From: Naegleria gruberi
Lineage: Eukaryota
NCBI GenBank assembly: GCA_000004985.1
Contig: GG738888.1
Reading direction: 5' to 3' (one strand)
Length of the DNA: 64,000 bases
The notes under the pieces are model-generated. The model was not told the DNA's origin and did no database searches. It worked only from the letters and a program-made list of their open reading frames with translations. Both the position numbers and the translations under genes were made by a program. Shown one piece after another: positions 13,959 through 64,000 of the stretch. Every line of letters begins with the position of its first letter. Position 1 is the first letter of the stretch.

Positions 13959-15155
13959 TTAATTCAAGATGCATTTCTTTTCTTTTTTTAAACTATTTAA
14001 ATATTTAATATCTTTTTCAATCACTTGTTGTAATATTGAATTTAAATTTGTTTGATTACCAAACCTAATTAACTTAACACCTTCTAGAAATGCATTTTCT
14101 ATACCCTCACCAGTTTTAGCACTACAAATAACTATATTTGTATTTGTTAGTTGATACTCATTAATAATATTAATAATTTCATTTTTCAATTTATCAATTT
14201 CATTGTTATCAGTAATTAAATCCATCTTATTTAATGCAAATATAATTGGAATATCTTCTGAATCTCTGATTCTAATTAATTGTTCAACTAAGGTCTTACA
14301 GAATTCAGCTGAGGAAAAATTAAATAAATCGCAAACATTGATAAAACAATCACCAGTTCTCATATATTGATCTATTCATATTAAATTATTGAGATATTCA
14401 AATCAACTTACCCCTATCAAATTAAATGATAAACAATCACATTTCACAACTTACCTCATAGCTGAGTATTCCTCTTGTCCATCTAATTAAATTAATTAGG
14501 ATTATCAAGTTTAATAATTCAATAAATGAAAATACTAACATGTATCTAATATATCAAGTTCAAACACCCTTCCATCAAATTCAATATTTCTTCTATAATC
14601 ATCATAATAACTTGGATCATATTGATCTGTATATCTATTCTGAATAAATCTAACCACAATCGATGATTTGCCTTATATCAAATATAATTACAATAAAAAT
14701 TAGATGAATAACATACCAACACCACCATCACCTATCATTACAAATTTAAGGTAATTGTCAGTAAAATCTAAATATTTAAATTGTTTATATTTAATATATA
14801 AAGTTAACAAAACAATCCTTTTTAAATTTGTTTTTTTAATTATTTGTTCCTTAATTATTTCATTATTCACTTTTATTGGTAAATAATTTTTCAATAACTC
14901 AAAATAAAATTCATTAAAATAATCACATTGATCATCATCGTACATTAATTTTTTACAACTTGTTTGAAAATTTAATAATTGTTTAATTTTAGTTGTATAT
15001 TTAATATTATAAGAATAACTAGTATCAAGAACATATGATAATATATTTAAATGTATTTCCAAGGGTAAATTAACGAACGTATTTTCATTATTGAATGATC
15101 GCATTTTTTTTAATTTAATTAATAATAACAAAAGTTCATCAAAGTAATCTTGCAA
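13959..15155 (-). CDS. Ras-like small GTPase with about 140-aa N-terminal extension (F-box-like LPxEIxxxIL motif); multi-exon, one junction unresolved
   Basis: Exon 1 (15155..14717) ends in the P-loop KFVMIGDGGVG|GTATGT. Exon 2 (14671..about 14540) continues KSSIVVRFIQNRYTDQYDPSYYDDYRRNIEFDGRVFELDILDT. A 28-nt exon (14482..14455) encodes (Y/A)GQEEYSAMR (switch II DxxGQEEYSAMR). The last exon (ORF 13959..14363) has YMRTGDCFINV...NKMDL...CSAKTGEGI (G4 NKxD, G5 SAK). Reading GT-AG sites as printed gives a +1 phase conflict at the last intron and DTYGQ instead of canonical DTAGQ. Confidence 0.55.
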
Positions 15156-15540
15156 ATCAAATAAAGCTATGGAAAGTCATCACAATAACAATGTCTAGTG
15201 GTGAAATAAAGAAGATATAAAGACACTCAGCAGTAAGAAACTAAAAGAAGACAATTGATGAAAAAGAGCTTATCGGAATAAGAGGAGTAAATTGCAATTA
15301 TTCTTCCCTGTCCGTCTTTTTGCACTGATGAGGCAAAAATACATTAAATTCATCATCAACACCCTCTCTTATTGAGGAGATATTAATGATGATTATTCAA
15401 CGACAATCAAATAAGAAAAAAATAAGAACAAGAATATTATCCTTCTTCCTTTTAAAATTGACAGACTCTTATGAAAAATGATGAACCACTTGAGAAGAAA
15501 ACATGCCCTGCCAACGGCTTCTACAACAGAGACTGTGAAT

Positions 15541-17449
15541 ATGGCTAATATTACCATCTTGATGGTGAATGATGTTTATGAATTGTTGGCGTAGGTAGTA
15601 GTAATTTAATTTCATTCCGAATGATGATGACAATGATGATGAATTTATTCATGAAGTGATGATAAAGGAGTTGGTGGATTGGCAGAATTGGCAACCATGA
15701 TTGATCAAGAGAAGAATAAATCGAGGTTTTCGATTTCTACTTTGAATGGTGATTTTATGAGTGCTTCGACTTTGGCAGAACAATTTAAAGGAGCTCACAT
15801 GATTGACGTATTGAATAATATGCCAATGTAAGTATGGTGGATGTTTGAATTTCAATGTTAATGTAATATTAGTGATTTTGTTTGTCCTGGAAATCATGTA
15901 AGTTTAGTTTTGGATTAAATTTTGGAATTAATTATTGGAAATTAGGAAGTAAGTGTTAAAATTTGAATAATGTTTGTGAATTTAAATGAAAATAGTTTGA
16001 TTTTGGATCAGAAATTTTGGAGGAACGCATTAAAGAATCTAATTTCAAGTGGATTTGTTCAAATGTTGTGTACAATAATGAGGAAACCAATGATAAAACA
16101 TTCAATAATTCTGAATCGAATATTTTGAAGGGAGTTTACAGAAAGTTTATTATTACTGACCCTGCTTTGGATGGTTTAAAGATTGGATTGTTTGGAGTTT
16201 GTACAAAATATTCGGAATATCTCAGTAAGCCTGGAAAATTAATCAAATTCCAACCAAGTATTCCTATTGCTAGAAGAATGGTCAATGAGCTTAGAAATGT
16301 AGATAAATGTGACGTTGTTATTGCCATTAACCATTTGAATATTGCCGATGATAAGGAACTGGTCAAAAGGGTGCCTGGAATAGATGTAGTAAGTATTATT
16401 TCTTGCAAACTCTTGCTAATTGACACAAATTCAAATACAGGTTTTGTCAGGTCACGATCATGAAGTATACACTGTCATCAAAGATAATTGCCTTATTCAC
16501 AAGGCAGGTCAGGATGCCAGATACCTCACAAGAATTGATTTAATTATAGAAAAGAATCAAACAACTGTAAATACTGGTAATCAATTCCATACTGTAAAGG
16601 TCTATCCATCATGTAACATGATGATTAATCACGGATACAAACCAAAAAAGAAAGTTTCAGATGTCATTCAAAAGTATATGGAAATGTTGCCACCAGGAAT
16701 TTTCGATCAAATTGGTGTCACTGAAACACCACTCTATTCCAGCACTGAAAGCTGTCGTTCTAAGGAAACCACTTATGGAAATCTTGTGGCTGATATTGTA
16801 AGAGAGGTTTGTTTTGAGAATTGTTTTTCAATATTTATTCTTTTTTGTTGTTCTTAAGATGTTTGATGCTGAAATAGCACTTTTCAATGGAGGTGGAATT
16901 AGAGGAGATCGTTTCTACGATCAAGGTAAAAAGATTACCAAATATGACATTCTCAAAGAATTCCCATTCCCTAATGAAATAGTTCTTTCACAAATTAAGG
17001 GAGTTGATTTATTAGCTGCTGTAGAGGAAGGAGTTCAGAAAGCAGAAAGTGTTGTTGGTGCCTTCCCACACTTCTCCAAAGGTATTTCGATCATTTATGA
17101 CAGTAGGAAACCTCCACTCAAACGTATCATTGAAATGACATTCAATGGCGAGAAAATTGATGAAAATCGCGTCTATTCATTTGCCACTGTTAAATATTTA
17201 CTTAAGGGAGGAGATGGTTTCTTCTCCTTGAAGAATGCAACCATTGTCGATCATCCAAGAAATGATCACAAAATTTTTGATATTGTTGTGGAATGGATTG
17301 AAAAATATCACATTTTGAAAGCTCACATTGAGGGAAGAATTATTGATATTGCCAGAGAACGTATCACTAATCAATGGAGTGGAACTAAGGGTGGAAGTGA
17401 TGACGATTTTGCAGGAGACTACGTTGAAGGAGACAATTTGAAATTCTAA
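15541..17449 (+). CDS. 5'-nucleotidase (calcineurin-like metallophosphoesterase plus 5'-NT C-terminal domain), 6 exons: 15541..15590, 15657..15827, 15873..15897, 15996..16388, 16441..16806, 16859..17449 (532 aa)
   Basis: Exon sum 1596 nt, in frame throughout. Motifs follow the NT5E/UshA order: ITILMVNDVYE (cf. LTILHTNDVHS), GGLAELAT, LNGDFMS, the GNH metal-ligand on a 25-nt micro-exon (DFVCPGNH), SGHDHE (GHxH), NGGGIRGD. Donors GTAGGT/GTAAGT/GTAAGT/GTAAGT/GTTTGT. Acceptors GAAG/TTAG/ATAG/ACAG/TAAG. An in-frame upstream ATG at 15478 is an alternative start. Confidence 0.75.
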
Positions 17450-36668: not shown

Positions 36669-38655
36669 TTGATGAATCAAACATTATCAACTTCAACATC
36701 AAGAAACATGTATTCGAATGAGAAGATAAATTGTTCGAATTGTTGCAGTGAATTATGTCGGAAGAATCGAATAGAAAGTCATAATTCAATGGTGCCCTGT
36801 ACGATTGGAGAGTTTAGATGCATGTATGGGACTGATAGTTTAGTTGAATTATTTAGTAGAATTGCTAATAATATAGTACAAGGACAGAGTAAGACTAATC
36901 TAGACGAAAGTGAGGCTAAACAACTTGAAGTTGATCAAATTGTGATGAAGGTTATGAAAATCGTTGCAGAGCCTTCATCAAGTGCTCTTGGAATAGTTTT
37001 CAGCTCACGACTTGAACATGCACTTCATAAACTTCATCTCACACTTATTGGATTCGGAACTAATGATACAACAGCTTTAGGATTCGACAATAATTCATGG
37101 TCAGATTTCAAGAGTGGCAAGGAAATATCCACCTTCATCAAGGATGCATCCAAAAGTCAACCACAATCTTTCATTACCGAGGATTTCATCGAGAAGGAAA
37201 CAACACTTGTGGATTTGGGACATAAAATCTACTCAACAGTTGGAATTAATTCAAATATCGAAATGGTTGCATTGGGATATGATTTCAGTTATTTTATCTA
37301 TGCATGTGGATGTATTGGATTGGCAGGAACGTGGTCAGAGAGTTTTGCTCGACTCTTCAAGTATCAATGGTCGAGAGAGTTGTCCTCTGTGCATCCGTCC
37401 ATGTTTTGCACTGCAATGATAAGTAGTAGGTTTTAATGTTGTGACATGTTGGGATTAATTTGGAATTTTTACAAAAATGGAAATTTGACACTTGTTGACT
37501 TTTTTAGAGGATAGAAAAACATTGTTTTCATTTGGATATAATTCTATGGGACAAGCTTCTGGGAAACTATCAGATGCTTATTTATTTCCAAAAGCTGTTG
37601 ATCCACAATTACACAATCATGAAACTATTCGATTTGTTTCGGTTGGATTTGAAGCAATTTATCTAGTGACTGAGGAAAACAACATGTATGTCTCTGGAGG
37701 TAATCACAATCACGAGCTGGGTATTGAGTGGATTAGGAAGAGTAAAATCAATGATTCCAATAGAATTGTGTTGAATTATGAAGTTGCTGAGGAAATTTTG
37801 GAAAAAGTTCAGGAACGAAAAATTATTCCAACTCTGCAATTGGTTCCAAATCTACCAAAACATGAGAAAATTATTCAGGTTGCAGCTGGTGAGAAGCATT
37901 CTTTTGTCTTAACAGAGGCAGGTAATATGTACTGCACTGGATCTAATCAAGTTGGTCAATTGGGATTGGGAAGTTCTGTTTCAGGTTTGGATAAATTCGA
38001 GAAACATCCATTTTCGAATATTGAAAAGGTAACACTCATTCATTGCTTTCAAAGTTCAACGATTTGGGTGACTGAGAGTGATACTGTCTATGTATGTGGT
38101 GAAAATTCCAATTCTGAGCTAGGAAATCTGTCATCTAATGATATTCTAATTGATGAGGAAAATCAAAATTTCATGGAACCTGTCACTCATCCAATATTAT
38201 GTGGAAAGGGAATTGTAAAAATTTATGGAATTTACAATTTATTTGCCATTACACGAAATGGTGAATATTTATGTTGGGGATCTAATGAGGAAAATGAACT
38301 TGGATTGGATGAAAATACTTTACTATCTTATAATTCTGGAGAAATTGTTAGAAACTTGGTATTTGAAAGGTATTCCAATTTGGTAAAAACTCGTGGATAT
38401 AAAATGGTATTAGCAGCAGGTTTCAATCATACCGTTCTATATTTCAAGGTAGATAATAAGAGAATTGTTTTCATGTTCCAACAATTACAGAATTTTGTGG
38501 AAAACTCACAAACTATTTCACCATTTTCAGATATTTCAATTATTCATGAAGAAGATATTCATGTTGATAATATCCTGAAAAGAAAATACAATGAAGCTAA
38601 TAACTCTCAAATAGAATCAAAAAAACAAAAAATAATCAAGGAAAAAATTAATTAA
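36669..38655 (+). CDS. RCC1-repeat (beta-propeller) protein, probably 2 exons (36669..about 37422 and about 37498..38655)
   Basis: Second ORF shows RCC1-like blades: GYNSMGQASG, VAAGEKHSFVLTEAGNMYCTGSNQVGQLGLGS, VYVCGENSNSELG, LCWGSNEENELGLD. First ORF has weaker blade-like segments (LIGFGTNDTTALGF, VALGYDFSYFIYACG). Proposed junction A|GTAGTA...TTTTTTAG|AG joins them in phase. My base indexing at the acceptor disagrees with the track frame by a few nt. Confidence 0.5.
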
Positions 38656-38797
38656 AAAATCTTTTTTGGTATTTTTTATATAATATTAACATATTAAATG
38701 GAAGAAAATTAACCTTCCCTATATGAAATCTCTTCTCAATATATTTGACTTGTTCCCAATTTAGACAATTTAAAATTTTTCTTTTAAAATTGAAAAT

Positions 38798-39180
38798 TTG
38801 CAATTTTTAAAATTTTTTGAAAAACCGCTTAAAAAAATGTTGAGAGGAAGTTTGCGTAGCGTTGCCGCTATCAGAAGAGGAGCATCAATGATTTCAAATA
38901 GGAATAATATTCGTATGATTTCATCTAGTTGTATGGCTAATAACGGGCTGAGTGCATTCAATGCTGTTGCTAGTCAAAGGTAGGAATTTTTTGATGTTTT
39001 TTATTAATTCGTGATGATGTTGATGAATATTGTTGTTCTATATTGTTGTTATTGTTTTTGTATTAATATTATATATGAATATTATTTAATGATGAAATAG
39101 TACTTCCGGTAATAGAAATAACTTTTGTGTTAAAGTGGTGAATCCAAGTGGAGTGTTTGCTCAAGGTTATATTACTTTTG
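38798..39180 (+). CDS. Possible small nuclear-encoded mitochondrial protein (presequence-like N-terminus), multi-exon, structure unresolved
   Basis: ORF begins MLRGSLRSVAAIRRGASMISNRNNIRMISS (R/S-rich amphipathic, no acidic residues) and ends at a GTAGGA donor-like site. A downstream in-frame-capable exon encodes ...VKVVNPSGVFAQGYITFGNTDDD before a GTTAGT donor-like site. No family match recognised. Confidence 0.2.
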
Positions 39181-39851
39181 GAAATACAGATGATGATGGT
39201 TAGTATGGTTAGTAGAGATTAATTCGATTAATAATTCTTAATTATTCAAAATAGATGGATAGGTGTGTATTATTTAAATTTAATGGAATTTACTAACATG
39301 TTGTTGCTTCCGATAATATCTAATAGTAGAAACTTGATAATCCTTTTTGTTTTGGAGAATTTAGGTGTTTGACAAAAACTATGTATGTCTCAAATATTCA
39401 ATATGCGTGTTTGCTCATATATTTCATTCTGTATTCAGAATTCCCAAGTGTGAATATTTAACTTTTCCCAATATATTTGTTGTTGGATATATTTAAAAAA
39501 AACTAAGATTAAAAATTGAAACATTATATATTCTTCTCCATCATCTTTTCATCCACACTTCTCTATCAATAATTTCACAAAGGAACGTAAAGATAAATTT
39601 TGTTATTGAAATTCAATAATTAAATTGATAAAAAATGCCAGCATCAAGTAAGTTGATGAAAACACAACGATTTGTGTGATGACCATTAAAAATTGATGAT
39701 TATTTGAATGTTTATAAATTGGCGTCGGATTTAAAAAGAAAAGAAAATTAAACAAAAGTTAAAGCAAAAGGAAAAGAAACAAGGAGAAACATCGACTGAA
39801 ATTGATGTCGATCGTCACGTTCCTCAAAATGCTAATGATTTTCAACAAGCT

Positions 39852-40130
39852 TTGGATTCTATTGCCAATCAATTGGATTCAATGAGCTCTCTTGGAACTC
39901 ATCTTGATGACGATGATGATGATAACGTTAGCTGTGTGACAAGTCAATTGTCTAAAAAGAAGGGTATCACAAAACCACAATCCAAGAAACAAAAATCAAA
40001 ACAAAAGAAGAATTTGGAAAAAGCTCTTTCATATCAAGATCGTTTGGAAACAACTGAAGTTAAAACTATTCATGATAAAATAAGGAAATTGCCAGAAGAA
40101 AAACAAAGAAGACACAATAAGAAGAAATAA
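39852..40130 (+). CDS. Small highly basic/acidic protein (K/R-rich with poly-D tract); 5' exon(s) uncertain
   Basis: 92-aa ORF with DDDDDD and KKQKSKQKK tracts. Open upstream in frame back to about 39750. A possible first exon ATGCCAGCATCAA|GTAAGT lies at 39634, but phases do not join cleanly. Confidence 0.25.
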   Translation: MDSIANQLDSMSSLGTHLDDDDDDNVSCVTSQLSKKKGITKPQSKKQKSKQKKNLEKALSYQDRLETTEVKTIHDKIRKLPEEKQRRHNKKK

Positions 40131-51646: not shown

Positions 51647-52423
51647 ATGACTGATCATATCAAAGTTAGAACAGTTTTGGATGGTATTGTCAAGGTACCA
51701 AAATCCACTACTCTACAAACCATCACCGATCTCAAGAAGGGAATTTACAATTTACGAGGATGGGAAGCATCCACACAACATTTGTATCAGAATGGTACTG
51801 AGTTGAAGGATGATCAAACTCTTTCCGATTCACTTCTTTCCAAAGGCTTTGTATTATTAATTCCAATTAATCATCAACAGAGAAGATATAAGAGTAAGAT
51901 AGAGATTGAATCGGAGGCTCAACAATCAACAGCTAGTAGTGGTTCTAATTTATTGCCAACAACTCCAACATCATCAGGATCAACCGGATCAGTCTCTGAT
52001 CAATTGGCACAAATTATGCATGAATTTACATCAACTCATCCTTCAGGAAATACCACTACAACCACCACTGCAACAAGACCTCCAACACAACCTGTACAAA
52101 ATACTACACAACCAAGAACAACTGCACCACCAACGACAACTCAACCACCAAGACCAACCCAACCAAGTATTAGTGATATTCAAAGACAATTATTAATTGA
52201 TAATTTCCCTGTAGATGATGGTTTGGTAGGCATGGTTATGGAGTTGGGTTTTTCAAAGAGAATTGCAAAGAAGGCTCTCATTCTTCATAATCTCGACCCA
52301 GAAGCTGCAGTGGAATGGATATTTTCAAACGTTGATAATCCATACATATTGGAAAGTGAATTTAGTGTAGAAGAACTCATGCAATTAGCTCAAAAATACC
52401 AAAATGCAATGAGAGACGAATAG
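51647..52423 (+). CDS. Ubiquitin-like (N-terminal) plus UBA (C-terminal) protein, proteasome-shuttle-like (258 aa)
   Basis: N-terminal about 75 aa has ubiquitin-fold spacing (IKVRTVLDGIVKVPKSTTLQTITDLKKGI...LKDDQTLSDSLLSKGFVLLI). T/P/Q-rich linker. C-terminal LVGMVMELGFSKRIAKKALILHNLDPEAAVEWIF is a UBA-type three-helix motif. Confidence 0.5.
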   Translation: MTDHIKVRTVLDGIVKVPKSTTLQTITDLKKGIYNLRGWEASTQHLYQNGTELKDDQTLSDSLLSKGFVLLIPINHQQRRYKSKIEIESEAQQSTASSGSNLLPTTPTSSGSTGSVSDQLAQIMHEFTSTHPSGNTTTTTTATRPPTQPVQNTTQPRTTAPPTTTQPPRPTQPSISDIQRQLLIDNFPVDDGLVGMVMELGFSKRIAKKALILHNLDPEAAVEWIFSNVDNPYILESEFSVEELMQLAQKYQNAMRDE

Positions 52424-54752: not shown

Positions 54753-56589
54753 ATGGATATTTTCTGTGTGTGTATAGCAGAATTTGATTTACTCAAAGGA
54801 AACACACTTTCACATGTGTATCCACCCGAACGAAGAACTATCCTAAACACTTTCACATCTCATTTGGGAGATTATTGTCTTCCGGATGGTGCTCACTATT
54901 TTGAAGAGGATGCTACCTATCTGGTAATTCCTTCAAATGTTGTGAGTTCTTCTCTGTATAGTTATTTGAAATCGGGTGCTTCTTCTAACAATGTTTCTAG
55001 TGTTTCGAATAGTGAGAATAGTTCAGTTGTTAATAATACACAACAAGTAATGGAATTTATTGAACCCTATGTGGATAAACCAATGTATGCTCATTGTTTA
55101 TTTAGAAATAAGAAGGATGAACGTGTCAAGAGAGGCGCCATTCAAAAGTCAATTATTTTATTTTCATCAAAACCATTATTTACTGTTTATGAGAATTTAT
55201 TGAGATTGGCATTGAATAGAATTTTGGATTTGGATAATATTCACTTACAGGTTAATGCTACAGCTACTAAGAAACAACCAGGTGAAGAATTAAACGAAAC
55301 GGATTTAAATCTTTTGAATCAAGTTCATGATCAGATTAATGATACTTTGAAAGAGTTTTATAACGAGTGCAGAAATTGTAACATGTTACAATTGAAATTA
55401 TTCCCAAATACTGATACTATTACTTTGAATATTCCACGTCAGATTGATCCATTCACACCAATTGCATTTACACATGGAACTTCTCTTGTACAATTAGTTC
55501 AATATTTTGGATTGGAAACAATGCTTGTTTGTTGGAATGCTCTATTATTGGATAAGAGAATTATGGTAATTGGTTCACCTGCCAAGTTGGTTTCACAGAT
55601 CTGTCTCACTCTTCCTCTCTTGATTTATCCATTCCAATATAATGTCAATCGTGTACATCCATATGTGCCACTCTCAGAGATGGATGATGTGTTATCTGCA
55701 ACTTCTAAAATTCCAGAATATATCATTGGTACGACGAATGCTCTCTTTGAAACTCAAGGAAAAAATCAGAGAACTCAATGGTGGGATGTTTGTTTGAGTG
55801 TCAATTCTAGAAAAGTTCAACTTGCTGAAAAGATGCCACCTCATTTCGGTGGCTCTGATTTGGCATTCCTCAATACAAATGATAGCGAAGACGTTCAAAT
55901 TGAAAAGCTCAATGCCTATCAGAAAGTATTCATGTTAAATGTCATTAGTGGAGTGAGAGATGGAAAGAGTGAACAATGGGTTCGTGATCAGTTCAAAACT
56001 CACAATCTCAAGTTTATTACCGAATTATTGACAAAGGGAAAGCTTACTGATATAGTTGAGAATGTTCCGTCTGATGTAGGTGTCGATCCACAAAAACAAC
56101 AAGTGGCTTTGAAGAATATTTCAGGAGGTCAATTGAAAAAGATTCAAAGACAGTTCATTGCTGAATCCTCCAAGTTTAGAACCTATGCTTTCAAACAATA
56201 TTCAACATTTAGAAGTTCACACTGTAGTGGAGATAAGAGTGATGACAAACAATCGGAATCTGTTCTCCAATTATTGCAATATTTACAGGTCGATAGGATT
56301 ATCAAGAAGCAAAAGCTTAAATACTTGTTTGATTTGGATAAGATGTTGTGTAATGTTGATCAAATTGACTTGTTATTGTCAGTTAGTGATAATTCAAGTA
56401 TTTTTACAACTATTAAGAATAACAAGTGGTTAATTGATGATAATAATCAGTGGAGAAAGTACAGTGCCAGTATTTTATCCCAATTGGCAATTAGTGTTAA
56501 AGGTCAAATTCAATTATTGTCTCTTCTTCCATCTATCAAACTCTTGACCGAAGATTCAATGCCAAATGTCAAGAGAATTGGTTATTACT
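54753..56589 (+). CDS. DENN-domain protein (AVL9/DENND6-like), 5' portion only; truncated by the assembly gap
   Basis: uDENN-like N-terminus MDIFCVCIAEFDLLKGNTLSHVYPPE. cDENN core LVQYFGLETMLVCWNALLLDKRIMVIGSPAKLVSQICLTLPLLIYPFQYNVNRVHPYVPLSEMDDVLSATSKIPEYIIGTTNALF matches the pattern LLxEkRIlfxS...LtxxxxAlxxLLyPFxWqhxyIPvLP. ORF runs directly into the N run at 56590. Confidence 0.55.
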
Positions 56590-57984
56590 NNNNNNNNNNN
56601 NNNNNNNNNNNNNNNNNNNNNNNNNNNNNNNNNNNNNNNNNNNNNNNNNNNNNNNNNNNNNNNNNNNNNNNNNNNNNNNNNNNNNNNNNNNNNNNNNNNN
56701 NNNNNNNNNNNNNNNNNNNNNNNNNNNNNNNNNNNNNNNNNNNNNNNNNNNNNNNNNNNNNNNNNNNNNNNNNNNNNNNNNNNNNNNNNNNNNNNNNNNN
56801 NNNNNNNNNNNNNNNNNNNNNNNNNNNNNNNNNNNNNNNNNNNNNNNNNNNNNNNNNNNNNNNNNNNNNNNNNNNNNNNNNNNNNNNNNNNNNNNNNNNN
56901 NNNNNNNNNNNNNNNNNNNNNNNNNNNNNNNNNNNNNNNNNNNNNNNNNNNNNNNNNNNNNNNNNNNNNNNNNNNNNNNNNNNNNNNNNNNNNNNNNNNN
57001 NNNNNNNNNNNNNNNNNNNNNNNNNNNNNNNNNNNNNNNNNNNNNNNNNNNNNNNNNNNNNNNNNNNNNNNNNNNNNNNNNNNNNNNNNNNNNNNNNNNN
57101 NNNNNNNNNNNNNNNNNNNNNNNNNNNNNNNNNNNNNNNNNNNNNNNNNNNNNNNNNNNNNNNNNNNNNNNNNNNNNNNNNNNNNNNNNNNNNNNNNNNN
57201 NNNNNNNNNNNNNNNNNNNNNNNNNNNNNNNNNNNNNNNNNNNNNNNNNNNNNNNNNNNNNNNNNNNNNNNNNNNNNNNNNNNNNNNNNNNNNNNNNNNN
57301 NNNNNNNNNNNNNNNNNNNNNNNNNNNNNNNNNNNNNNNNNNNNNNNNNNNNNNNNNNNNNNNNNNNNNNNNNNNNNNNNNNNNNNNNNNNNNNNNNNNN
57401 NNNNNNNNNNNNNNNNNNNNNNNNNNNNNNNNNNNNNNNNNNNNNNNNNNNNNNNNNNNNNNNNNNNNNNNNNNNNNNNNNNNNNNNNNNNNNNNNNNNN
57501 NNNNNNNNNNNNNNNNNNNNNNNNNNNNNNNNNNNNNNNNNNNNNNNNNNNNNNNNNNNNNNNNNNNNNNNNNNNNNNNNNNNNNNNNNNNNNNNNNNNN
57601 NNNNNNNNNNNNNNNNNNNNNNNNNNNNNNNNNNNNNNNNNNNNNNNNNNNNNNNNNNNNNNNNNNNNNNNNNNNNNNNNNNNNNNNNNNNNNNNNNNNN
57701 NNNNNNNNNNNNNNNNNNNNNNNNNNNNNNNNNNNNNNNNNNNNNNNNNNNNNNNNNNNNNNNNNNNNNNNNNNNNNNNNNNNNNNNNNNNNNNNNNNNN
57801 NNNNNNNNNNNNNNNNNNNNNNNNNNNNNNNNNNNNNNNNNNNNNNNNNNNNNNNNNNNNNNNNNNNNNNNNNNNNNNNNNNNNNNNNNNNNNNNNNNNN
57901 NNNNNNNNNNNNNNNNNNNNNNNNNNNNNNNNNNNNNNNNNNNNNNNNNNNNNNNNNNNNNNNNNNNNNNNNNNNNNNNNNNNN
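56590..57984. other. Assembly gap (1,395 N)
   Basis: Uninterrupted run of n. The X-only ORFs in the track across this span are artefacts. Both flanking genes (DENN on +, family copy 0 on -) run into it. Confidence 0.99.
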
Positions 57985-58454
57985 TGACAATCTGTTATTT
58001 GTGTGGAATTTGATCGCATGTCAGTAGCATTAGAATTACTTAGAGGAAAGTGGACGAAATGGCAATAATCTGATGGCGTGATTGTTGACGCATGCATGTC
58101 ATTTTCCATTTGCTGATTTTTCGCTTTGTTCAATTCTTCCAAAATCGAATATTCACTATCAACATGCATATTAGGATTACTGACATGTGTCTCGACATGC
58201 ATCTTGACAGGTAAGCTCATTACACTAGCTAAACTATCCTTCTTAGATAAAACTCTAAATTGTGATGTTGGCTCTTGATGTTTCTCCACATGAAATACGA
58301 AATAATTATCCAAAAATCTTTCGTTTAATAAAGTCTTTCTTAAACGTTGAGTTTTCAGTTTGTTTTCACGTTTGGCTATTCGCATGGAAGTTCTCAATGT
58401 TTCGTCTATGAAGGAAACATCTCTTTGATTGAGTTTCGAATAAGGTTGTGGCAT
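57985..58454 (-). CDS. Member 0 of the novel tandem small-gene family (N-terminal about 156 aa present; C-terminus lost in gap); divergent, longer variant
   Basis: MPQPYSKLNQRDVSFIDETLRTSMRIAKRENKLKTQRLRKTLLNERFLDNYFVFHVEKHQEPTSQFRV shares the family N-terminal signature F.DET..T..RI.K....K...LRK.L.N..L.NYFV...EK.E....FR with the three downstream copies. Confidence 0.45.
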
Positions 58455-59478
58455 GTTTTTTTTTAGTTGGAAAGTTTCAAACTTTCTTCATGCACAAGGG
58501 TAATATCGAACAAGTCTGGTTGTGAGCACATTCAAAATGGTCAATGGAAAGATTTTTTAAAGTACATGGTTATGGCATTATCCAAAAAGGGAACATTGAT
58601 GGTCAATTAAGGTTTTTGCACATCAATTCAAAGTTGCCTTGTATAGTGCAATGAGTTCTTCCACAATAATTGTTGGTTAATACTAGCAATCAAAAGTTAA
58701 AAGTTCCATTTTTGAACATTAACTTTAATACTGTTCTGTTGTCTGTTGTAAAAGTCAATTTTTATTATTACAATGTCGCATGAATGAAATTATGCGTTTT
58801 ATTGTTCTGATAATGGCACTCTTCTAAAATAGAAGTTTGATACTTGCTAATTATTGAGGCACATGATTCGTTTCGTTTCTTATCGGTCTGTATGTGCTTA
58901 ATGAAGTTGAGAAAACTTTCGAAAGTACACGTTTCGGTTTCACCACTTTCATCATCTAATAAGAATGTGGAAAGTAGTGGTTTTTCTGCAATAATTCTTG
59001 TATAAATTTCAAGGTTTCCATTCAATTTGTTTGTGAACATTAACATCATTTTCTGGAAGAAAGGATTTAAAATCGTTCAGCCAAGTTACCATATCAAACA
59101 AATGTGTTCATAAATGCTTCAAACTAATAATGTTCTGCTAATCATTAAGCATTACCGGATAGATTATCATTTTTCTTCTGAAAGATAATCAAATTCAAAC
59201 TTATTAGAGATTGGAAAATAGTGGTATTGTTTCTGCCTCATTTCAGTGTCACTTTGCCAGCATGGAATTGTCACAACAGGATATGGAACTGTGTGCTTAA
59301 TGAAGTTTCCAATGAATGTTGATGAGAATCCTTTCGAATACAATCTGTTTCAGTTTCACTTAAAGTAGCGAGATGGGTAAAACAGAGATATTACTCAAAA
59401 GATTAGTTCTCAAAACACAAGATCCCATTCTAAATCGCAGATATGAAAATCATGAGAGTTGCGACTCAACTGAGATTT

Positions 59479-59937
59479 TTATTGGAAGAAGTTTCTGTTT
59501 TGTCCTTGATCCATAAGAGCACAACACAATTGCAGTAGAAATAAATCGAATTGTTGCTGATGGTTGTGGATAGTGTTTGTAGTTTCTTCTGGTTGTTGTG
59601 TTTCATTTCGAATGATATTTGTTTCGAATAATTGATTTTGCTCGTGGTTATAGTTTGCTGATTGCAAGTTGTTGATCTTTGGTGGAGAAGTGCTAACGTG
59701 TTTAGTCACAATTAATTGTTCACTTTCGAATGATTTGGATCCATCAATTCGAAAGACAACAGTTTCGTCCTTTTCAGGGTTCAAAACAAAGTAATTCTTC
59801 AATAAATCATCATTACACAATTGTTTTCTCAACTCGTGTTTGGCAGATATCTTTACCTTCTTTTGAATTCTATTCAAAGTTTTACAAGTTTCGTCCTTGA
59901 ACATTATTTGTTTCGTCTTCTTATTCGAATTATTCAT
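59479..59937 (-). CDS. Member A of novel tandem small-gene family (152 aa)
   Basis: MNNSNKKTKQIMFKDETCKTLNRIQKKVKISAKHELRKQLCNDDLLKNYFVLNPEKDETVVFRI...FLLQLCCALMDQGQNRNFFQ. Full ATG-to-stop ORF. N-terminal about 70 aa and C-terminal about 25 aa conserved with members B and C. Middle about 50 aa Q/N/T-rich and divergent. Confidence 0.55.
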   Translation of the reverse strand: MNNSNKKTKQIMFKDETCKTLNRIQKKVKISAKHELRKQLCNDDLLKNYFVLNPEKDETVVFRIDGSKSFESEQLIVTKHVSTSPPKINNLQSANYNHEQNQLFETNIIRNETQQPEETTNTIHNHQQQFDLFLLQLCCALMDQGQNRNFFQ

Positions 59938-60815
59938 CTTTGAGTTATTTTATTTAATATTAATTCAATGTCCAGCACACATGTTTCCATGATCAAAAGT
60001 TTGCCTTTATCAACTGAACCTGCCAAATTGTCCTTTTTGATATTGACAATCAGATGTGCTGCATTCAAACAATCACATTTACAAACTTAAAACGAAAGGA
60101 GATATTCGATATGGAAAATTGCAATTTCATTATGGAATTACGAGACAATTGAGGCTCTTTCAAATTTTGGCTTCATGACCTCGAGGGAAAACACTTTAAA
60201 AGGAATTATCTTTATTTGTCAAATTTTCATGGAAATGAGATTGTGGGAGCTCAATATCACAACATTTAAATAATTACAAATGTGAGAATGGGAAGAACAA
60301 GCAGATTCGACGAAAGGAACACTGAGGTAGTTTGATAGAGTTGATATTCTTTCGTGTGATGATGAACTAAACCAAGTAGCCCACAAGCTATGAGAGTCTT
60401 GGATGGTTTGCTGGTTGTGTTGTTTTAAAAAGAAAGAAAACAATTCATCTATGATATTAATCCACACTTCATATAAAATATCTAAAAATTATTGCTATTT
60501 TCTTAAAGTATCTAAAAATTATTAAAGTAATTTGCCTTGTAATTAAACAAATTTACTATATTGGTTATCATTTTACTTGCTCGTTAGATATCTAAGTTTC
60601 TTGTGATGCGTCCATTATTCGAAAGCCAAATCCTCCATGCATGTAAGCCAAAAAACTGTCATCCTTTCGAATGAACACACTTCAATTTTGCTAAAGCAGA
60701 TCAATAGTGCTTCAACTGATAATTGATTTAATGTTGGGTCTCTTCAATAATAATACGACATACCTAATCAACAAGTGCATTAACTGATGAGTGGGAGAAA
60801 TCTCAATTTACAGAT

Positions 60816-61262
60816 TTATTGAAAATTATTTCTGTTTTCTCCTTGATCTAATTGTGCACAACATAACTGCAGAAGGAATAGATTTAATTGTTGATGGTTG
60901 TGGAGAGAGTTTGAAGTTTCGTCTAGTTGGGGATCATTTCGAATGGTTTCTAATGATTGAACAAGTGGAATTGGCTCTTGGTTTTGATATGATACGTTGC
61001 TGATCTTTGGTGGAGAGGAGCTGACTTGTTTAGTTACAATTAATTGCTCATTTTCGAATGATTTAATGTCATCAATGCGAAAGACTGAAGTTTCGTCTTT
61101 TTCTCTATCCAAAACAAAGTAATTCTTCAATAATTCATCATTGCATAATTGTTTCCTGAGTTCGTGCTTGGCAGACTTTACTTTCTTCTTGTTTATTCTA
61201 TTCAATGTTTTACTAGTTTCGTCTGTGAACATTAGTTTCGGATTCTTTCCATTATTCATCAT
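60816..61262 (-). CDS. Member B of novel tandem small-gene family (148 aa)
   Basis: MMNNGKNPKLMFTDETSKTLNRINKKKVKSAKHELRKQLCNDELLKNYFVLDREKDETSVFRI...FLLQLCCAQLDQGENRNNFQ. Same conserved termini. About 40-nt conserved 3' flank (CAA(c/t)TT(g/a)CAGATTTATTGAAA) shared with member C. Confidence 0.55.
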   Translation of the reverse strand: MMNNGKNPKLMFTDETSKTLNRINKKKVKSAKHELRKQLCNDELLKNYFVLDREKDETSVFRIDDIKSFENEQLIVTKQVSSSPPKISNVSYQNQEPIPLVQSLETIRNDPQLDETSNSLHNHQQLNLFLLQLCCAQLDQGENRNNFQ

Positions 61263-62496
61263 GGAATCTTTTTGGTATTTTATTTGATCACGTAATTTGA
61301 GATTTTTGCTTCTGAACCTGTCAACAATTCAGCAAGGACTTTAGCACCACTTTCTATCAAGAAATTTCCAACAGAAAGAGTTGTATAGTTGACAGATATC
61401 AAAATTAAGGCACCTGACATGTGTCATGAGAGGAAGATAAGGTTGAATAAAAACGAAACATGTTAAATTTAGTTTATTTCTTTTTTGTTTATTTCTCGTA
61501 GAAGCTCCTCTTCTTTGCAGACCTCTATTTTCTCCATTACTCTTTAAGGAAATAATTAGTGACTTTCTTTTTAGAAACAAGAGTTTCGGATATCAAAATA
61601 TTAATAATAATACCTTTTCATTAAATAGGCAATCCACATTTTCCAAAAACACTTTAATCATGTAGAAAAGGGAGAATTCATTTATAGACTTTTCAGTCGA
61701 AATTTACCATTTGTTGATTTGTAATTATTCGAAAATGATTTATTTCAGAAATGATGAGTATCCTTTGTTATATTTCACTGAATAGTTTTTCAGAAAAAGT
61801 TTTCCACTATCACTCACTACATGTGTTGAAACACATTGTTGAACAAAGTTCTGAGTTATTTTTAATACTCTTCAATTCCACTTAATAATGCTTTCATTTA
61901 CAATTATTGTACATTAAAATTGTGTTTGTTGATGAATTGATGTAAATTCTTGCCAGGTTTGATGTGACAGACTGATTCGGTCTGGTTGACAATACATGAA
62001 CACACTACTAGCTGTTGATTGTTGATCCTCTAGATTCAATCTATTTGATTGTGGTATTAAAATGTTACATGACCACACCTTTTTTTGACACACATGTACA
62101 TGTAGCTGTTGTGTGCATGTTCAGCAATTTAACAAATATGATAACAATTGAAGCATGCTATATCTCTTTCGAAACCTCCACTATTAACTTTCTTCTAACA
62201 ACATTATTCCGGTGCTACATGTAAGCACACATGGTCAGCATGTTATTTCTTTTTTGTTTGAACGTATTGGAAGTCTACATGTTGTAACCTCAACAACATG
62301 ATGACTTTCTAATATTTCAATTTCACCAAAAGCAGTGAAATGACTCATTTTAAGCAGGCAAATTGCTTTTAAACGATCTAATGAATTTGTAACAGTGGTA
62401 TTATTCAAGATTAGTTTGCCTAAATCTGCCTTCTTCGCGTAATTGACTGGCCGAAAGTCATGGATGAGAAAATTTACAAATCTCCAACTTGCAGAT

Positions 62497-62946
62497 TTAT
62501 TGAAAGCAACTTCTTTTTTGCCCTTCTTGTTGGTGAATGAGTGCACAACACAATTGTAGAAGGAATTGGTTCATTTCTTGTTGGTTGTGGATGGTGTTTA
62601 TAATTTCGTCTGGTTGTGGATCATTTCGAATGGTTTCAGATACTTGTACTGGTGGATTTGGTTCATGGTGATGAGTTGATTGGACGTTAGTGACCATTGA
62701 GTGTTTAGTCACAATTACTTGCTCATTTTCTAATGGTGTGTTTTCAATTCGAAAGACAACAGTTTCGTCCTTTTCAGGGTTCAAAACAAAGTAATTCTTT
62801 AATAAATCATCATTACACAACTGTTTTCTCAATTCATGTTTGGCAGATATCTTTTCCTTCTTCTTATGTATTCTATTCAATGTTTTACAAGTTTCGTCCA
62901 TAAACTTTATAACTTTCTCCTTCTTTCTAATATTCGAATTTTTCAT
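62497..62946 (-). CDS. Member C of novel tandem small-gene family (149 aa)
   Basis: MKNSNIRKKEKVIKFMDETCKTLNRIHKKKEKISAKHELRKQLCNDDLLKNYFVLNPEKDETVVFRI...FLLQLCCALIHQQEGQKRSCFQ. The block KHELRKQLCNDDLLKNYFVLNPEKDETVVFRI is identical at the amino-acid level to member A. Confidence 0.55.
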   Translation of the reverse strand: MKNSNIRKKEKVIKFMDETCKTLNRIHKKKEKISAKHELRKQLCNDDLLKNYFVLNPEKDETVVFRIENTPLENEQVIVTKHSMVTNVQSTHHHEPNPPVQVSETIRNDPQPDEIINTIHNQQEMNQFLLQLCCALIHQQEGQKRSCFQ

Positions 62947-63392
62947 TGGTTTGAGAGTTTTTTATTTTAATTTGTACAGACCTGTCATCATCAGTACGTA
63001 TGTGAAGCATGAACAATTATAATTTGTAACTTCTAATCTGAGAATTTGAGATTATAGAGTTGAATTTGGCAATTAATTTTGTCCTTTTCAGAGCATCAAA
63101 TTGAAGTGTTTACATGGGTGATACAATGACATCTAACTGAAGTGTTTGACGTGTTTGTGAAATGAAGTTTATTCGAAATTAAACGTAATTTTCTAATTGT
63201 TCCATTCAGGATCAAGTCAAATTTGATTCTTGTTCATTGACTACGGTCCTTTTCATTGATGTTCACTAATCTTAATTTAGATGCCAATTTGAAAAGGCAA
63301 GTAAATGTTCTAAAACTATTGTTTATTGGATGGAGATGATAGCTCTTGGCCAGTTTCGTAAACTCGTCTTGGAAACGAAAAATCTTAAAGAT

Positions 63393-63788
63393 TCAGAGAA
63401 ATTATTTCTGTTTTCTCCTTGCTCTAATTGTGCACAACATAACTGTGGAAGGAATAGATTGAATTGTTGGTTGTGGAGAGAGAGTTTGAAGTTTTGTCGA
63501 GTTGGGGATCATTTCTAAGTTGCCGATCTTTGGTGGAGAAATCGATAAAATAATAGAGAAACAATAAAGAGATTGAATAAATTGAGAGTTTATTGAAAGC
63601 ATAAATATGTGGGTGCCGTAGCTTTGTTGGCAGACAACATCTCATGTTGCAGTCCGGATGGCAATTGCCTTAATGATCATCTCCTTATTGTCCTATACCA
63701 AAAATGATTGTTGTTTAATGAAATATCGAAGTTAGTATATTGCTTTGAGTGTGCAATATTAGTTTCGTCTGTTATTCGAATTATTCAT
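63393..63788 (-). pseudogene. Fragmented pseudocopy (member D) of the tandem family: retains start region and 3' terminal block but the body is deleted/replaced
   Basis: 63393..63520 matches the 3' block of members B/C (…TCTCCTTGCTCTAATTGTGCACAACATAACTGTGGAAGGAATAGATTGAATTGTTGG…GGGGATCATTTC), but with an about 70-nt internal deletion relative to B. 63760..63850 matches the start (ATGAATAATTCGAATAAC…) and upstream flank of member B. The about 240 nt between are unrelated, so no intact ORF. Confidence 0.5.
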
Positions 63789-64000
63789 TGTGGAATCATT
63801 TTGATACGTAATTTGAGATTTTTACTTCTTACCCTATCAACAAGCCACCAACTATCCAAAACAAAAGAAGAGCATGTGACCTATTGCATGTGTTGTTGCT
63901 TGATTTCACTGAATAGTTGTCTATATGTTGATCAGTTGATGTGTAATTTGTGCCAATCATCTTGATCCAAAAATGTGAAAGTTGTGTTTTTGAGATAATA

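What the first reader, a model, noticed from the sequence alone, without database searches (positions are those of the whole stretch)
57985..63965. Tandem array of an unrecognised small-protein gene family with conserved termini and a hypervariable core, abutting an assembly gap
At least four intact minus-strand genes of 148-152 aa (plus one longer divergent member and one fragmented pseudocopy) recur every 1.3-1.7 kb. All share a basic N-terminal block (F.DET.KTLNRI.KK.K.SAKHELRKQLCND.LLKNYFVL..EKDET.VFRI) and a C-terminal block (…FLLQLCCA….R..FQ). The middle about 50 residues are Q/N/T/P-rich and differ almost completely between neighbours. I cannot place the family in any domain family I know. 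The N-terminal block looks like a nucleic-acid- or protein-binding module. The pattern of conserved ends plus diversified core, tandem amplification, pseudogenised copies and an unassemblable gap is what rapidly evolving recognition systems look like (effector/incompatibility-like families). The array is the best candidate in this window for an undescribed lineage-specific system.
Basis: seen in the sequence. Interest (0 to 1): 0.75.

Follow-up and report, generated by a model that had tools for sequence, protein, structure and literature searches.

The report
Naegleria orphan small-protein gene array
This is a real tandem cluster of small genes found only in the amoeba Naegleria gruberi and its relative Willaertia, but it looks like an ordinary duplicated orphan family with a floppy middle rather than a rapidly evolving recognition system, and its function is unknown.

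Summary
The window is a Naegleria gruberi scaffold. The array is real but smaller than described. It holds three intact minus-strand genes: A 59479-59937, B 60816-61262 and C 62497-62946. It also holds a divergent member D (58454 down into the gap) and a dead copy E (63385-63851). It is the next annotated gene on the same scaffold.

DNA similarity stops at the coding ends. Overall dN/dS is 0.29-0.37, so these are selected genes, not transposon debris. The "hypervariable core" is overstated. It is 44-55% identical between copies, its dN/dS is 0.65-0.91 (never above 1), and it coincides with the segment AlphaFold models as disordered.

A 97%-identical metagenome contig reads 1.7 kb into the gap. 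It shows only the end of D and the tail of the neighbouring Avl9/DENN-like gene, with no hidden copies.

An exhaustive profile search of 1.84 billion proteins finds relatives only in N. gruberi-like amoebae and Willaertia magna. All share an invariant signature, DET…LRK…NYF. There is no Pfam, PDB or fold match.

Best reading: an old birth-and-death array of an undescribed, taxon-restricted family. Each protein has a basic N-terminal domain, an acidic disordered linker and a C-terminal amphipathic helix. A nuclear adaptor or regulator role is inferred only.

The parts
56590..57984 (.). Assembly gap (run of N). By comparison with contig L001 it holds the last 79 nt of gene D, a 25-nt spacer and at least 538 codons of the convergent Avl9/DENN-like gene. 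It holds no further family copies.
57985..58454 (-). Copy D, the divergent family member. The first 156 codons are present and the remaining 26 codons fall in the gap. The full length is 182 aa in the 97%-identical ortholog P0005. Not annotated in GenBank as far as the searches show.
   Evidence: pN/pS against the ortholog is 0.19, with 0 of 7 changes in codons 6-97 being nonsynonymous.
59479..59937 (-). Copy A, intact, 152 aa. Equals GenBank EFC41098 / NAEGRDRAFT_71130, 'predicted protein'.
59692..59910 (-). Within A: the conserved basic N-terminal domain (residues 10-82). It carries the invariant DET…LRK…L.NYF signature. The model gives a helix followed by three beta strands.
   Evidence: dN/dS 0.15-0.25.
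59584..59691 (-). Within A: the variable Q/N/T/P/H-rich core (residues 83-118), predicted disordered.
   Evidence: pLDDT below 50. dN/dS 0.65-0.91 and 44-55% aa identity, measured over the slightly wider alignment columns 69-135.
59500..59583 (-). Within A: the C-terminal amphipathic helix (residues 119-146, …LFLLQLCCAL…).
   Evidence: Helix with block-mean pLDDT up to 87. Amino acids are conserved while synonymous sites are near saturation, pS 0.59-0.86.
60816..61262 (-). Copy B, intact, 148 aa. GenBank EFC41099 / NAEGRDRAFT_71131 is modelled from the second Met as 138 aa.
62497..62946 (-). Copy C, intact, 149 aa. Equals GenBank EFC41100 / NAEGRDRAFT_71132.
63385..63851 (-). Copy E, a pseudogene. 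The start region and 50 nt upstream resemble A and B. There is a stop at codon 10 and the DET/LRK/NYF region is unrecognisable. The 3' 134 nt are 88% identical to B but frameshifted, and the stop codon is lost.

Best explanation
The locus is an old tandem, birth-and-death array of a taxonomically restricted ('orphan') protein family of vahlkampfiid amoebae (the Naegleria gruberi clade and Willaertia magna).

Each unit is one intronless gene of about 450 nt, separated from the next by a spacer that has diverged beyond recognition. The protein has three parts:
1. A basic N-terminal domain of about 70 aa under strong purifying selection. Its invariant signature is [F/I]-x-D-E-T … L-R-K-x-L-x-N-x-x-L-L-x-N-Y-F. 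The predicted fold is a helix plus a three-stranded sheet.
2. An acidic or polar low-complexity linker that is intrinsically disordered and evolves under relaxed, not positive, selection.
3. A conserved amphipathic C-terminal helix.

The 'conserved ends, variable core' pattern is therefore the ordinary signature of two functional modules joined by a disordered tether. Occasional gene conversion between paralogs and one decayed copy add to the picture.

Inferred, not shown: the proteins are soluble and intracellular, probably nuclear. The basic domain would bind nucleic acid or an acidic partner. The C-terminal helix would recruit a partner or mediate self-association, giving a small transcription-factor-like or adaptor architecture.

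My confidence by layer:
- Real, selected, orphan tandem family: about 0.9.
- Core is a relaxed disordered linker rather than a diversifying interface: about 0.75.
- Nuclear or nucleic-acid-binding adaptor function: about 0.3.
For: Organism and annotation:
- Copy A is 100% identical to N. gruberi 'predicted protein' EFC41098 on a 351,708-bp scaffold.

Real genes:
- Between copies, DNA similarity covers only the CDS plus or minus about 15 nt, at 74-76%.
- The spacers share neither DNA nor translated similarity.
- Nei-Gojobori dN/dS is 0.29-0.37 overall, 0.15-0.25 in the N-terminal block and below 0.2 in the C-terminal block.
- D against its counterpart in a 96.8%-identical metagenome contig has 9 synonymous and 7 nonsynonymous changes, pN/pS 0.19. 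All changes within codons 6-97 are synonymous.

Core:
- dN/dS is 0.65-0.91 and aa identity is 44-55%.
- pLDDT is below 50 over residues 67-118 and 83-118 in the two AF2 runs.
- Allelic differences (P0022, P0023, P0024) fall mostly in the core.

Family breadth:
- An exhaustive hmmsearch of 1.84e9 representatives gave 9 hits. All are N. gruberi, Willaertia magna or unnamed Naegleria-like contigs.
- DET, LRK and NYF are invariant across 16 sequences.
- Willaertia has an adjacent tandem pair.

Charge dipole:
- In all 9 paralogs tested, the motif region carries +5 to +11 (pI 9.6-11.6) and the rest carries -2 to -16 (pI 4.2-5.8).

Birth and death, and conversion:
- E is a pseudogene.
- A and C are 93-97% identical in codons 31-60 but 61-74% identical downstream.

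Gap:
- Contig L001 continues 1718 nt into the gap. It contains only the end of D and a convergent gene of at least 538 codons.
Against: - No experimental or expression evidence was available. Gene identifiers were not found in the searchable literature.
- The structure models are of low confidence (mean pLDDT 51-59, pTM 0.21-0.23). The fold and the disorder call are therefore provisional.
- No homolog of known function exists, so the nuclear or nucleic-acid-binding role rests only on charge distribution and architecture.
- dN/dS was computed pairwise with Nei-Gojobori on three short sequences. A few positively selected codons inside the core cannot be excluded.
- Synonymous divergence is oddly lower in the core (dS 0.35-0.40) than at the ends. 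This is unexplained. Gene conversion or small-sample noise are possible causes.
- Absence from N. fowleri rests on protein databases of annotated genes, and small ORFs may be unannotated there.
Confidence: 0.6

Rival explanations
1. One reading: a rapidly evolving recognition, effector or incompatibility-like system. The conserved ends would be scaffolds, and the core would be a specificity determinant driven by diversifying selection.
For: - Tandem amplification, one pseudogene and a core more variable than the ends.
- Allelic differences between haplotype scaffolds concentrate in the core.
- Core dN/dS of 0.65-0.91 is high enough that a minority of codons could be under positive selection.
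Against: - Core dN/dS never exceeds 1 and drops to 0.34-0.70 if gene-wide dS is used.
- The core is 44-55% identical, not unalignable.
- The core coincides with predicted disorder.
- The paralogs are old (dS 0.5-0.8 or more, spacers saturated), not a recent burst.
- Strain orthologs are nearly identical.
- There is no signal peptide or membrane segment, as read directly from the sequences.
- The gap hides no extra copies.
Confidence: 0.1
2. Regulators or substrates that dock protein phosphatase 1. The hydrophobic strand just before the invariant DET resembles the RVxF docking motif (R/K-x0-1-V/I/L-x-F/W followed by acidic residues, as in 'RRVSFAD' of known PP1 partners, recalled from my own knowledge). 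The rest of the protein would target or inhibit the phosphatase.
For: - 9 of 17 family sequences match [RK].{0,1}[VIL][^P][FW] immediately upstream of DET. These include A, B, C, P0003, D, P0007 and P0008, for example RDVSFIDET, AKVSFIDET and KQIMFKDET.
- The small size and largely disordered character match what is typical of PP1 regulators (general knowledge).
Against: - The motif is absent in P0006, P0019, P0010, P0012, P0011 and all Willaertia members. There the basic residue or the terminal F/W is missing. It is therefore not a defining family feature.
- The regular expression is short and frequently matched by chance.
- There is no Pfam hit to IPP-2 or other PP1-regulator families.
Confidence: 0.07
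3. Transposable-element debris, or a repeat family whose ORFs are not host genes.
For: - The sequence is repeated and sits next to an assembly gap, with one degenerate copy.
Against: - Similarity is confined to the ORF, and there are no shared flanks.
- No terminal inverted or long terminal repeats bracket the copies.
- There is no transposase, integrase or RT Pfam match in any of 16 members.
- Purifying selection acts on the ORFs.
- There are no relatives in viral contigs.
- Relatives in Willaertia sit among ordinary housekeeping genes.
Confidence: 0.02
4. Non-functional ORFs or annotation artefacts: chance ORFs in duplicated DNA that are not translated.
For: - No expression data could be consulted.
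- The proteins are short, low in complexity in the middle and have no known domain.
Against: - Coding regions are conserved while adjacent spacers are saturated.
- dN/dS is well below 1 at both ends.
- The signature is invariant across two genera.
- The one copy that lost its frame (E) has visibly decayed in the motif region. This shows what absence of selection looks like here.
Confidence: 0.04

Closest known systems
Taxonomically restricted (orphan) gene families expanded by tandem duplication with birth-and-death evolution
   Same: - Restricted to one small clade.
- No detectable homologs or domains elsewhere.
- Head-to-tail same-strand copies, a pseudogenised member and patchy gene conversion.
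   Different: Nothing unusual relative to this general category. The only specific content is a new conserved sequence signature (DET…LRK…NYF) that has no entry in Pfam.
Small modular transcription regulators (basic nucleic-acid-binding region plus acidic or hydrophobic activation helix joined by a Q/N-rich disordered linker)
   Same: - The motif region is strongly basic and the remainder is acidic.
- Low-complexity Q/N/T/P-rich middle.
- Short hydrophobic-acidic C-terminal helix, for example LDLLQFLMQLTD and LKLDVDDFI.
   Different: - No match to any known DNA-binding domain by sequence or by fold.
- DNA binding and nuclear localisation are untested.
- This is a resemblance of architecture only.
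PP1-interacting proteins with an RVxF docking motif
   Same: About half of the members carry an RVxF-like string followed by acidic residues at the start of the conserved domain.
   Different: - The motif is not conserved across the family.
- No sequence homology to IPP-2, NIPP1, inhibitor-3 or similar families.
Ribosomal protein eL6, C-terminal segment (PDB 7qca chain LE0)
   Same: It is the only PDB sequence hit of the domain profile. A 47-residue stretch has a similar K-rich … LLKxxxNxxxxKxYF pattern.
   Different: E = 4.6 and 10.6 bits, which is not significant. I treat it as chance.

Membership tests
Any curated Pfam-A family | Score above the gathering threshold against a Pfam HMM | tested here: not met
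   In 16 family members the best hits have E of 0.018 or worse and about 13 bits, against cut-offs of 21-27 bits. No family recurs in more than 2 members.
Transposable element / transposase-derived repeat | Transposase, integrase or RT domain in the ORF | tested here: not met
   No such Pfam hit.
Transposable element / transposase-derived repeat | Conserved non-coding termini (TIR or LTR) flanking each copy | tested here: not met
   Similarity ends within about 15 nt of the CDS. The inverted repeats found are short (31 nt or less), 73-89% complementary and not positioned consistently around copies.
Diversifying-selection recognition families (effector / incompatibility-like) | dN/dS above 1 in the variable region | tested here: not met
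   Core dN/dS is 0.65-0.91 in the three pairwise comparisons. Site-level tests were not possible with three sequences.
Diversifying-selection recognition families (effector / incompatibility-like) | High divergence or presence/absence between strains | tested here: inconclusive
   D against its strain ortholog differs at 7 of 156 aa, pN/pS 0.19. P0013 against P0014 differs at 3 of 148 aa. Orthologs of A, B and C were not present in the one related metagenome assembly. This could reflect incompleteness or absence.
Diversifying-selection recognition families (effector / incompatibility-like) | Secretion signal or surface exposure | tested here: not met
   N-termini are hydrophilic (MNNSNKKTKQ…, MKNSNIRKKEK…). 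No hydrophobic stretch is long enough for a membrane span. This was read directly from the sequences, and no dedicated predictor was run.
PP1 regulators (RVxF docking) | Conserved [RK]-x(0,1)-[VIL]-{P}-[FW] motif | tested here: inconclusive
   Present in 9 of 17 sequences at the same position and absent in the rest, including all Willaertia members.
PP1 regulators (RVxF docking) | Physical binding to the PP1 catalytic subunit | not testable with these tools
   Requires pull-down or two-hybrid experiments.
Taxonomically restricted tandem gene family (the category I file it under) | Homologs confined to a narrow clade despite an exhaustive search | tested here: met
   An hmmsearch of 1.84e9 representatives gave 9 hits, all N. 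gruberi, Willaertia or Naegleria-like contigs. Three word-indexed searches of 5.8e9 proteins add only Willaertia and unnamed contigs. Nothing was found in viral contigs or in the metagenome scan.
Taxonomically restricted tandem gene family (the category I file it under) | Copies are functional genes (purifying selection) | tested here: met
   dN/dS is 0.29-0.37 overall. pN/pS is 0.19 for D against its ortholog. The CDS is conserved while the spacers are not.
Taxonomically restricted tandem gene family (the category I file it under) | Transcription and translation of the copies | not testable with these tools
   No RNA-seq, EST or proteome data are accessible. The identifiers are absent from the searchable literature.

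The most novel reading that the evidence does not exclude
The DET…LRK…NYF module would be a previously undescribed heterolobosean-specific protein domain. It would define a new class of small nuclear regulators: either a novel DNA/RNA-binding fold, or a PP1-docking module. Tandem paralogs would differ in their linker and C-terminal helix so as to diversify partner choice. The evidence excludes neither, because no homolog of known function or fold exists.
Probability: 0.2. Interest if true: 0.45.

Novelty: new member of a known kind. Interest (0 to 1): 0.27.

Why it matters
The evidence does not support that.

What remains is modest but real. This is a conserved protein family with no Pfam entry, restricted to Naegleria gruberi-type amoebae and Willaertia. 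It has a clear sequence signature and at least 10 paralogs in N. gruberi.

It is a candidate for a new domain entry and, eventually, for a lineage-specific regulator. The family was not detected in the pathogen N. fowleri. This would be mildly interesting for comparative genomics if confirmed at the DNA level.

The work also yields a practical correction. The scaffold gap interrupts two genes, D and the Avl9/DENN-like gene. An existing metagenome contig supplies the missing 3' end of D and at least 538 codons of the neighbour.

Tried and rejected
- Pfam scans of all members gave nothing.
- The PDB sequence-profile search gave only a non-significant eL6 hit.
- Two AlphaFold runs, with 5 and 16 sequences, gave low confidence (pLDDT 51 and 59).
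- Exact look-ups of P0003 and P0004 to fetch DNA beyond the window returned 'not on record'. I could therefore not read the rest of the array. I inferred its order from GenBank accession and locus-tag numbering.
- The metagenome scan for P0003 relatives found none.
- The viral-contig scan found none, which argues against a giant-virus origin.
- The third protein search, using the long paralogs, found only the query sequences and no N. fowleri homolog.
- Literature searches for the locus tags and for Naegleria/Willaertia orphan families gave nothing relevant. A Naegleria kinetochore preprint, checked because of the RVSF-like motif, was unrelated.
- The spacers were searched for a second conserved gene or shared element and none was found.
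- I tried by eye, with no tool, to fit the C-terminal helix to nuclear-export-signal spacing patterns. It did not fit cleanly and I dropped the idea.
- I considered a tail-anchor or transmembrane reading of the C-terminal helix and rejected it. The hydrophobic run is only 9-14 residues and is interrupted by Q.

Full report
**1. What the window is**

The best hit of the 152-aa ORF at 59479-59937 is a 100%-identical 'predicted protein [Naegleria gruberi]' on a 351,708-bp scaffold, accession EFC41098 / NAEGRDRAFT_71130. The window has 33% G+C and long intronless ORFs. Its neighbours are typical eukaryotic genes: Avl9/DENN, RGS, M20 peptidase, UBL-UBA and tubulin-tyrosine ligase. This is a nuclear scaffold of the amoeboflagellate N. 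gruberi. A run of N occupies 56590-57984.

**2. Checking the observation**

Five family elements lie on the minus strand:

| Element | Coordinates | State |
|---|---|---|
| D | 58454 down to 57985, then into the gap | Divergent, 30-43% identical to the others over the N-terminal part |
| A | 59479-59937 | Intact, 152 aa |
| B | 60816-61262 | Intact, 148 aa |
| C | 62497-62946 | Intact, 149 aa |
| E | 63385-63851 | Degenerate copy |

- Only three intact genes of 148-152 aa are in the window, not 'at least four'. A fourth (P0003, 150 aa, 83% identical to C) exists but has no match in the window.
- GenBank numbering places P0003 next on the same scaffold. The order is EFC41098 = A, 41099 = B, 41100 = C, 41101 = P0003 and 41103 = P0013. 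P0013 is a more divergent 148-aa member. That the array continues beyond base 64000 is an inference from accession order. I could not fetch that DNA.
- E has a stop at codon 10 and no recognisable DET/LRK/NYF region. Its 3' end is 88% identical to B but frameshifted, and its stop codon is lost. It is a pseudogene.

**3. Are these genes or repeat debris?**

- Between copies, blastn similarity covers the CDS plus or minus about 15 nt at 74-76% identity and then stops.
- The four spacers share no DNA similarity and no translated similarity.
- No consistent inverted or long terminal repeats bracket the units.
- No member hits a transposase or any other Pfam family.
- Nei-Gojobori dN/dS for A, B and C is 0.29-0.37 overall, 0.15-0.25 in the N-terminal block and below 0.2 in the C-terminal block. 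In the C-terminal block the amino acids are conserved while synonymous sites are near saturation, with pS 0.59-0.86.
- A 2,536-bp metagenome contig (L001, ENA ERZ929261) is 96.8% identical to window 57985-58802. In D's coding part there are 9 synonymous and 7 nonsynonymous differences, giving pN/pS 0.19. Every change in codons 6-97 is synonymous.

These are genes under purifying selection. The TE-debris and chance-ORF readings are rejected.

**4. The 'hypervariable core'**

- The middle of the protein is more variable than the ends, but it is not unalignable. It is 44-55% identical in protein.
- Only about 20 codon columns (about 91-110) drop to 61-67% nucleotide identity.
- Core dN/dS is 0.65-0.91, which is relaxed and never above 1. 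With gene-wide dS as the denominator it would be 0.34-0.70.
- Two AlphaFold2 runs place the core in the low-confidence segment with no secondary structure, residues 67-118 and 83-118.
- The N-terminal part is modelled as a helix (17-29) plus three strands (48-53, 58-64, 77-82). The C-terminus is a helix (119-143) with block-mean pLDDT up to 87.
- Differences between the alleles on the alternative N. gruberi scaffolds (P0022, P0023, P0024) also fall mostly in the core.

Taken together, this is the usual behaviour of a disordered linker between two constrained modules. It is not evidence for diversifying selection. With three short sequences I cannot exclude a few positively selected codons.

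**5. The gap**

L001 continues 1,718 nt past window position 57985. It contains:
- the last 79 nt of D, giving a complete 182-aa protein (P0005) that ends in …NIFLLLLHYFPNITFP, a recognisable variant of the family's C-terminal helix;
- a 25-nt spacer;
- at least 538 codons of a convergent gene running to the end of the contig.

That gene is presumably the missing C-terminal part of the Avl9/DENN-like ORF that enters the gap from the other side at 54753. This is an inference. The two pieces do not overlap, and the gap estimate of 1395 N is shorter than the 1,718 nt already read. At least in that close relative, no hidden family copies lie in the gap.

**6. How wide the family is**

- A profile of the array members searched exhaustively against 1.84 billion representative proteins returned 9 hits at E of 1e-3 or better.
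- Cluster look-ups show these to be N. gruberi predicted proteins on other scaffolds (P0008, P0012, P0011, P0006/P0013), Willaertia magna hypothetical proteins (P0009/P0016), and unnamed contigs. The unnamed contigs come from the same metagenome and from a Logan assembly, SRR21279712, of what looks like another Naegleria-type genome.
- Two further Willaertia proteins came from the domain-profile search.
- Lengths range from 100 to 358 aa.
- Across 16 sequences the invariant residues are D-E-T, L-R-K, L and N-Y-F. The signature is [F/I]xDET–(about 20, Lys/Arg-rich)–LRKxLxNxxLLxNYF. It is followed by a beta-hairpin region and a loosely conserved (I/V)(I/V)TKH strand.
- Most members end with a short hydrophobic or acidic helix: LFLLQLCCAL, IFLLQLYSLL, LDLLQFLMQLTD or LKLDVDDFI.
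- In Willaertia two members sit side by side on the same strand (L003 9420-9857 and 10001-10420) among housekeeping genes. Tandem duplication is therefore a recurring habit of the family.
- No hit came from N. fowleri or N. lovaniensis, other eukaryotes, viral contigs or the metagenome scan. Absence in other Naegleria species rests on annotated proteins only.

**7. Comparison with known families**

- There is no Pfam match in any member.
- The only PDB sequence hit is a non-significant stretch of ribosomal protein eL6, E = 4.6.
- The locus tags do not occur in the searchable literature.
- The gene models have been public since the genome was deposited, labelled 'predicted protein'. I found no description of the family.

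**8. How it most likely works**

Shown:
- There are two constrained modules joined by a relaxed linker.
- A consistent charge dipole is present in all nine paralogs tested. The motif region carries +5 to +11 (pI 9.6-11.6) and the remainder carries -2 to -16 (pI 4.2-5.8).
- There is no N-terminal hydrophobic signal and no membrane-length hydrophobic run, as read from the sequences.

Inferred:
- These are soluble intracellular, probably nuclear proteins.
- The basic domain would bind nucleic acid or an acidic partner.
- The C-terminal amphipathic helix would bind a partner or self-associate.
- This is an adaptor or small transcription-regulator-like architecture. I give this functional reading about 0.3.

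A second lead is the string immediately before DET. In 9 of 17 sequences, including A, B, C and D, it matches the PP1-docking RVxF pattern, for example RDVSFIDET. It is missing in the other members, including all from Willaertia. I rate this at about 0.07.

**9. History of the array**

- Paralog dS is 0.5-0.8 overall and higher at the ends, and the spacers are saturated. The duplications are old compared with the strain divergence of pS about 0.1.
- A and C are 93-97% identical over codons 31-60 but only 61-74% identical further downstream. At the 3' end B, C and E are the closer set. This mosaic suggests gene conversion between paralogs.
- E shares about 50 nt of upstream sequence with B and has since decayed.
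- This is classic birth-and-death evolution with some conversion.

**10. Verdict**

The family is real and undescribed.
- The count of intact copies, the 'almost completely different' core and the significance of the gap are all overstated.
- The recognition-system interpretation is not supported.
- I classify the locus as a new member of a known kind, namely taxon-restricted, tandemly duplicated small-protein families. It carries an unannotated conserved domain of unknown function.
- Interest is low to moderate, 0.27.
- The most novel reading not excluded is a new heterolobosean-specific nucleic-acid-binding or PP1-docking domain. I give it about 0.2.

Noticed in passing
window 54753-56589 (+) and L001 923-2536 (-): A long Avl9/SPA/DENN-family ORF (Pfam E 1e-21 to 1e-24) is cut by the N gap after 612 codons. 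Metagenome contig L001 carries at least 538 further codons of a convergent gene with no Pfam match, which is probably its missing C-terminal half. The gap must be longer than the 1395 N written, because 1718 nt of L001 still do not reach the left flank.
   Followed up: partly
window 59479-59937 vs 62497-62946: The similarity between paralogs A and C is mosaic. Identity is 93-97% over codons 31-60 but 61-74% downstream. At the 3' end B, C and E are the closer set. This is probably gene conversion. Synonymous divergence is also unexpectedly lower in the variable core (dS 0.35-0.40) than in the conserved ends (0.9 or more for most pairs). This is unexplained.
   Followed up: partly
window 61985-62042 vs 51903-51960: A 60-nt stretch in the spacer between B and C matches, in inverted orientation and at 87% identity, a piece of the UBL-UBA gene at 51647-52423 (…QQSTASS… region). 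It could be a tiny duplicated fragment or a low-complexity coincidence.
   Followed up: partly
N. gruberi scaffolds of 43,517 bp and 15,509 bp (not in the window): Near-identical second copies of A (P0022), C (P0023, P0024) and P0013 (P0006) sit on small separate scaffolds. They are most simply separately assembled haplotypes of the same array. No counterpart of B (and none of P0003) was among the proteins returned from that scaffold.
   Followed up: no
window 57985-58454 (-): Copy D does not appear among the N. gruberi GenBank proteins returned by any search. Only the metagenome ortholog P0005 does. D is probably unannotated because the gap removes its stop codon.
   Followed up: partly
window 14001-16000 and 38001-40000: Two 2-kb bins have markedly lower G+C (0.26 and 0.28) than the window mean of about 0.34, and they lack ORFs of 150 aa or more over part of their length. 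Not examined.
   Followed up: no
L003 9420-10420 (Willaertia magna JBEGDK010000045.1): Willaertia has its own adjacent same-strand pair of family members, of 145 and 139 aa. A 100-aa truncated near-duplicate (P0021) lies on another contig.
   Followed up: partly
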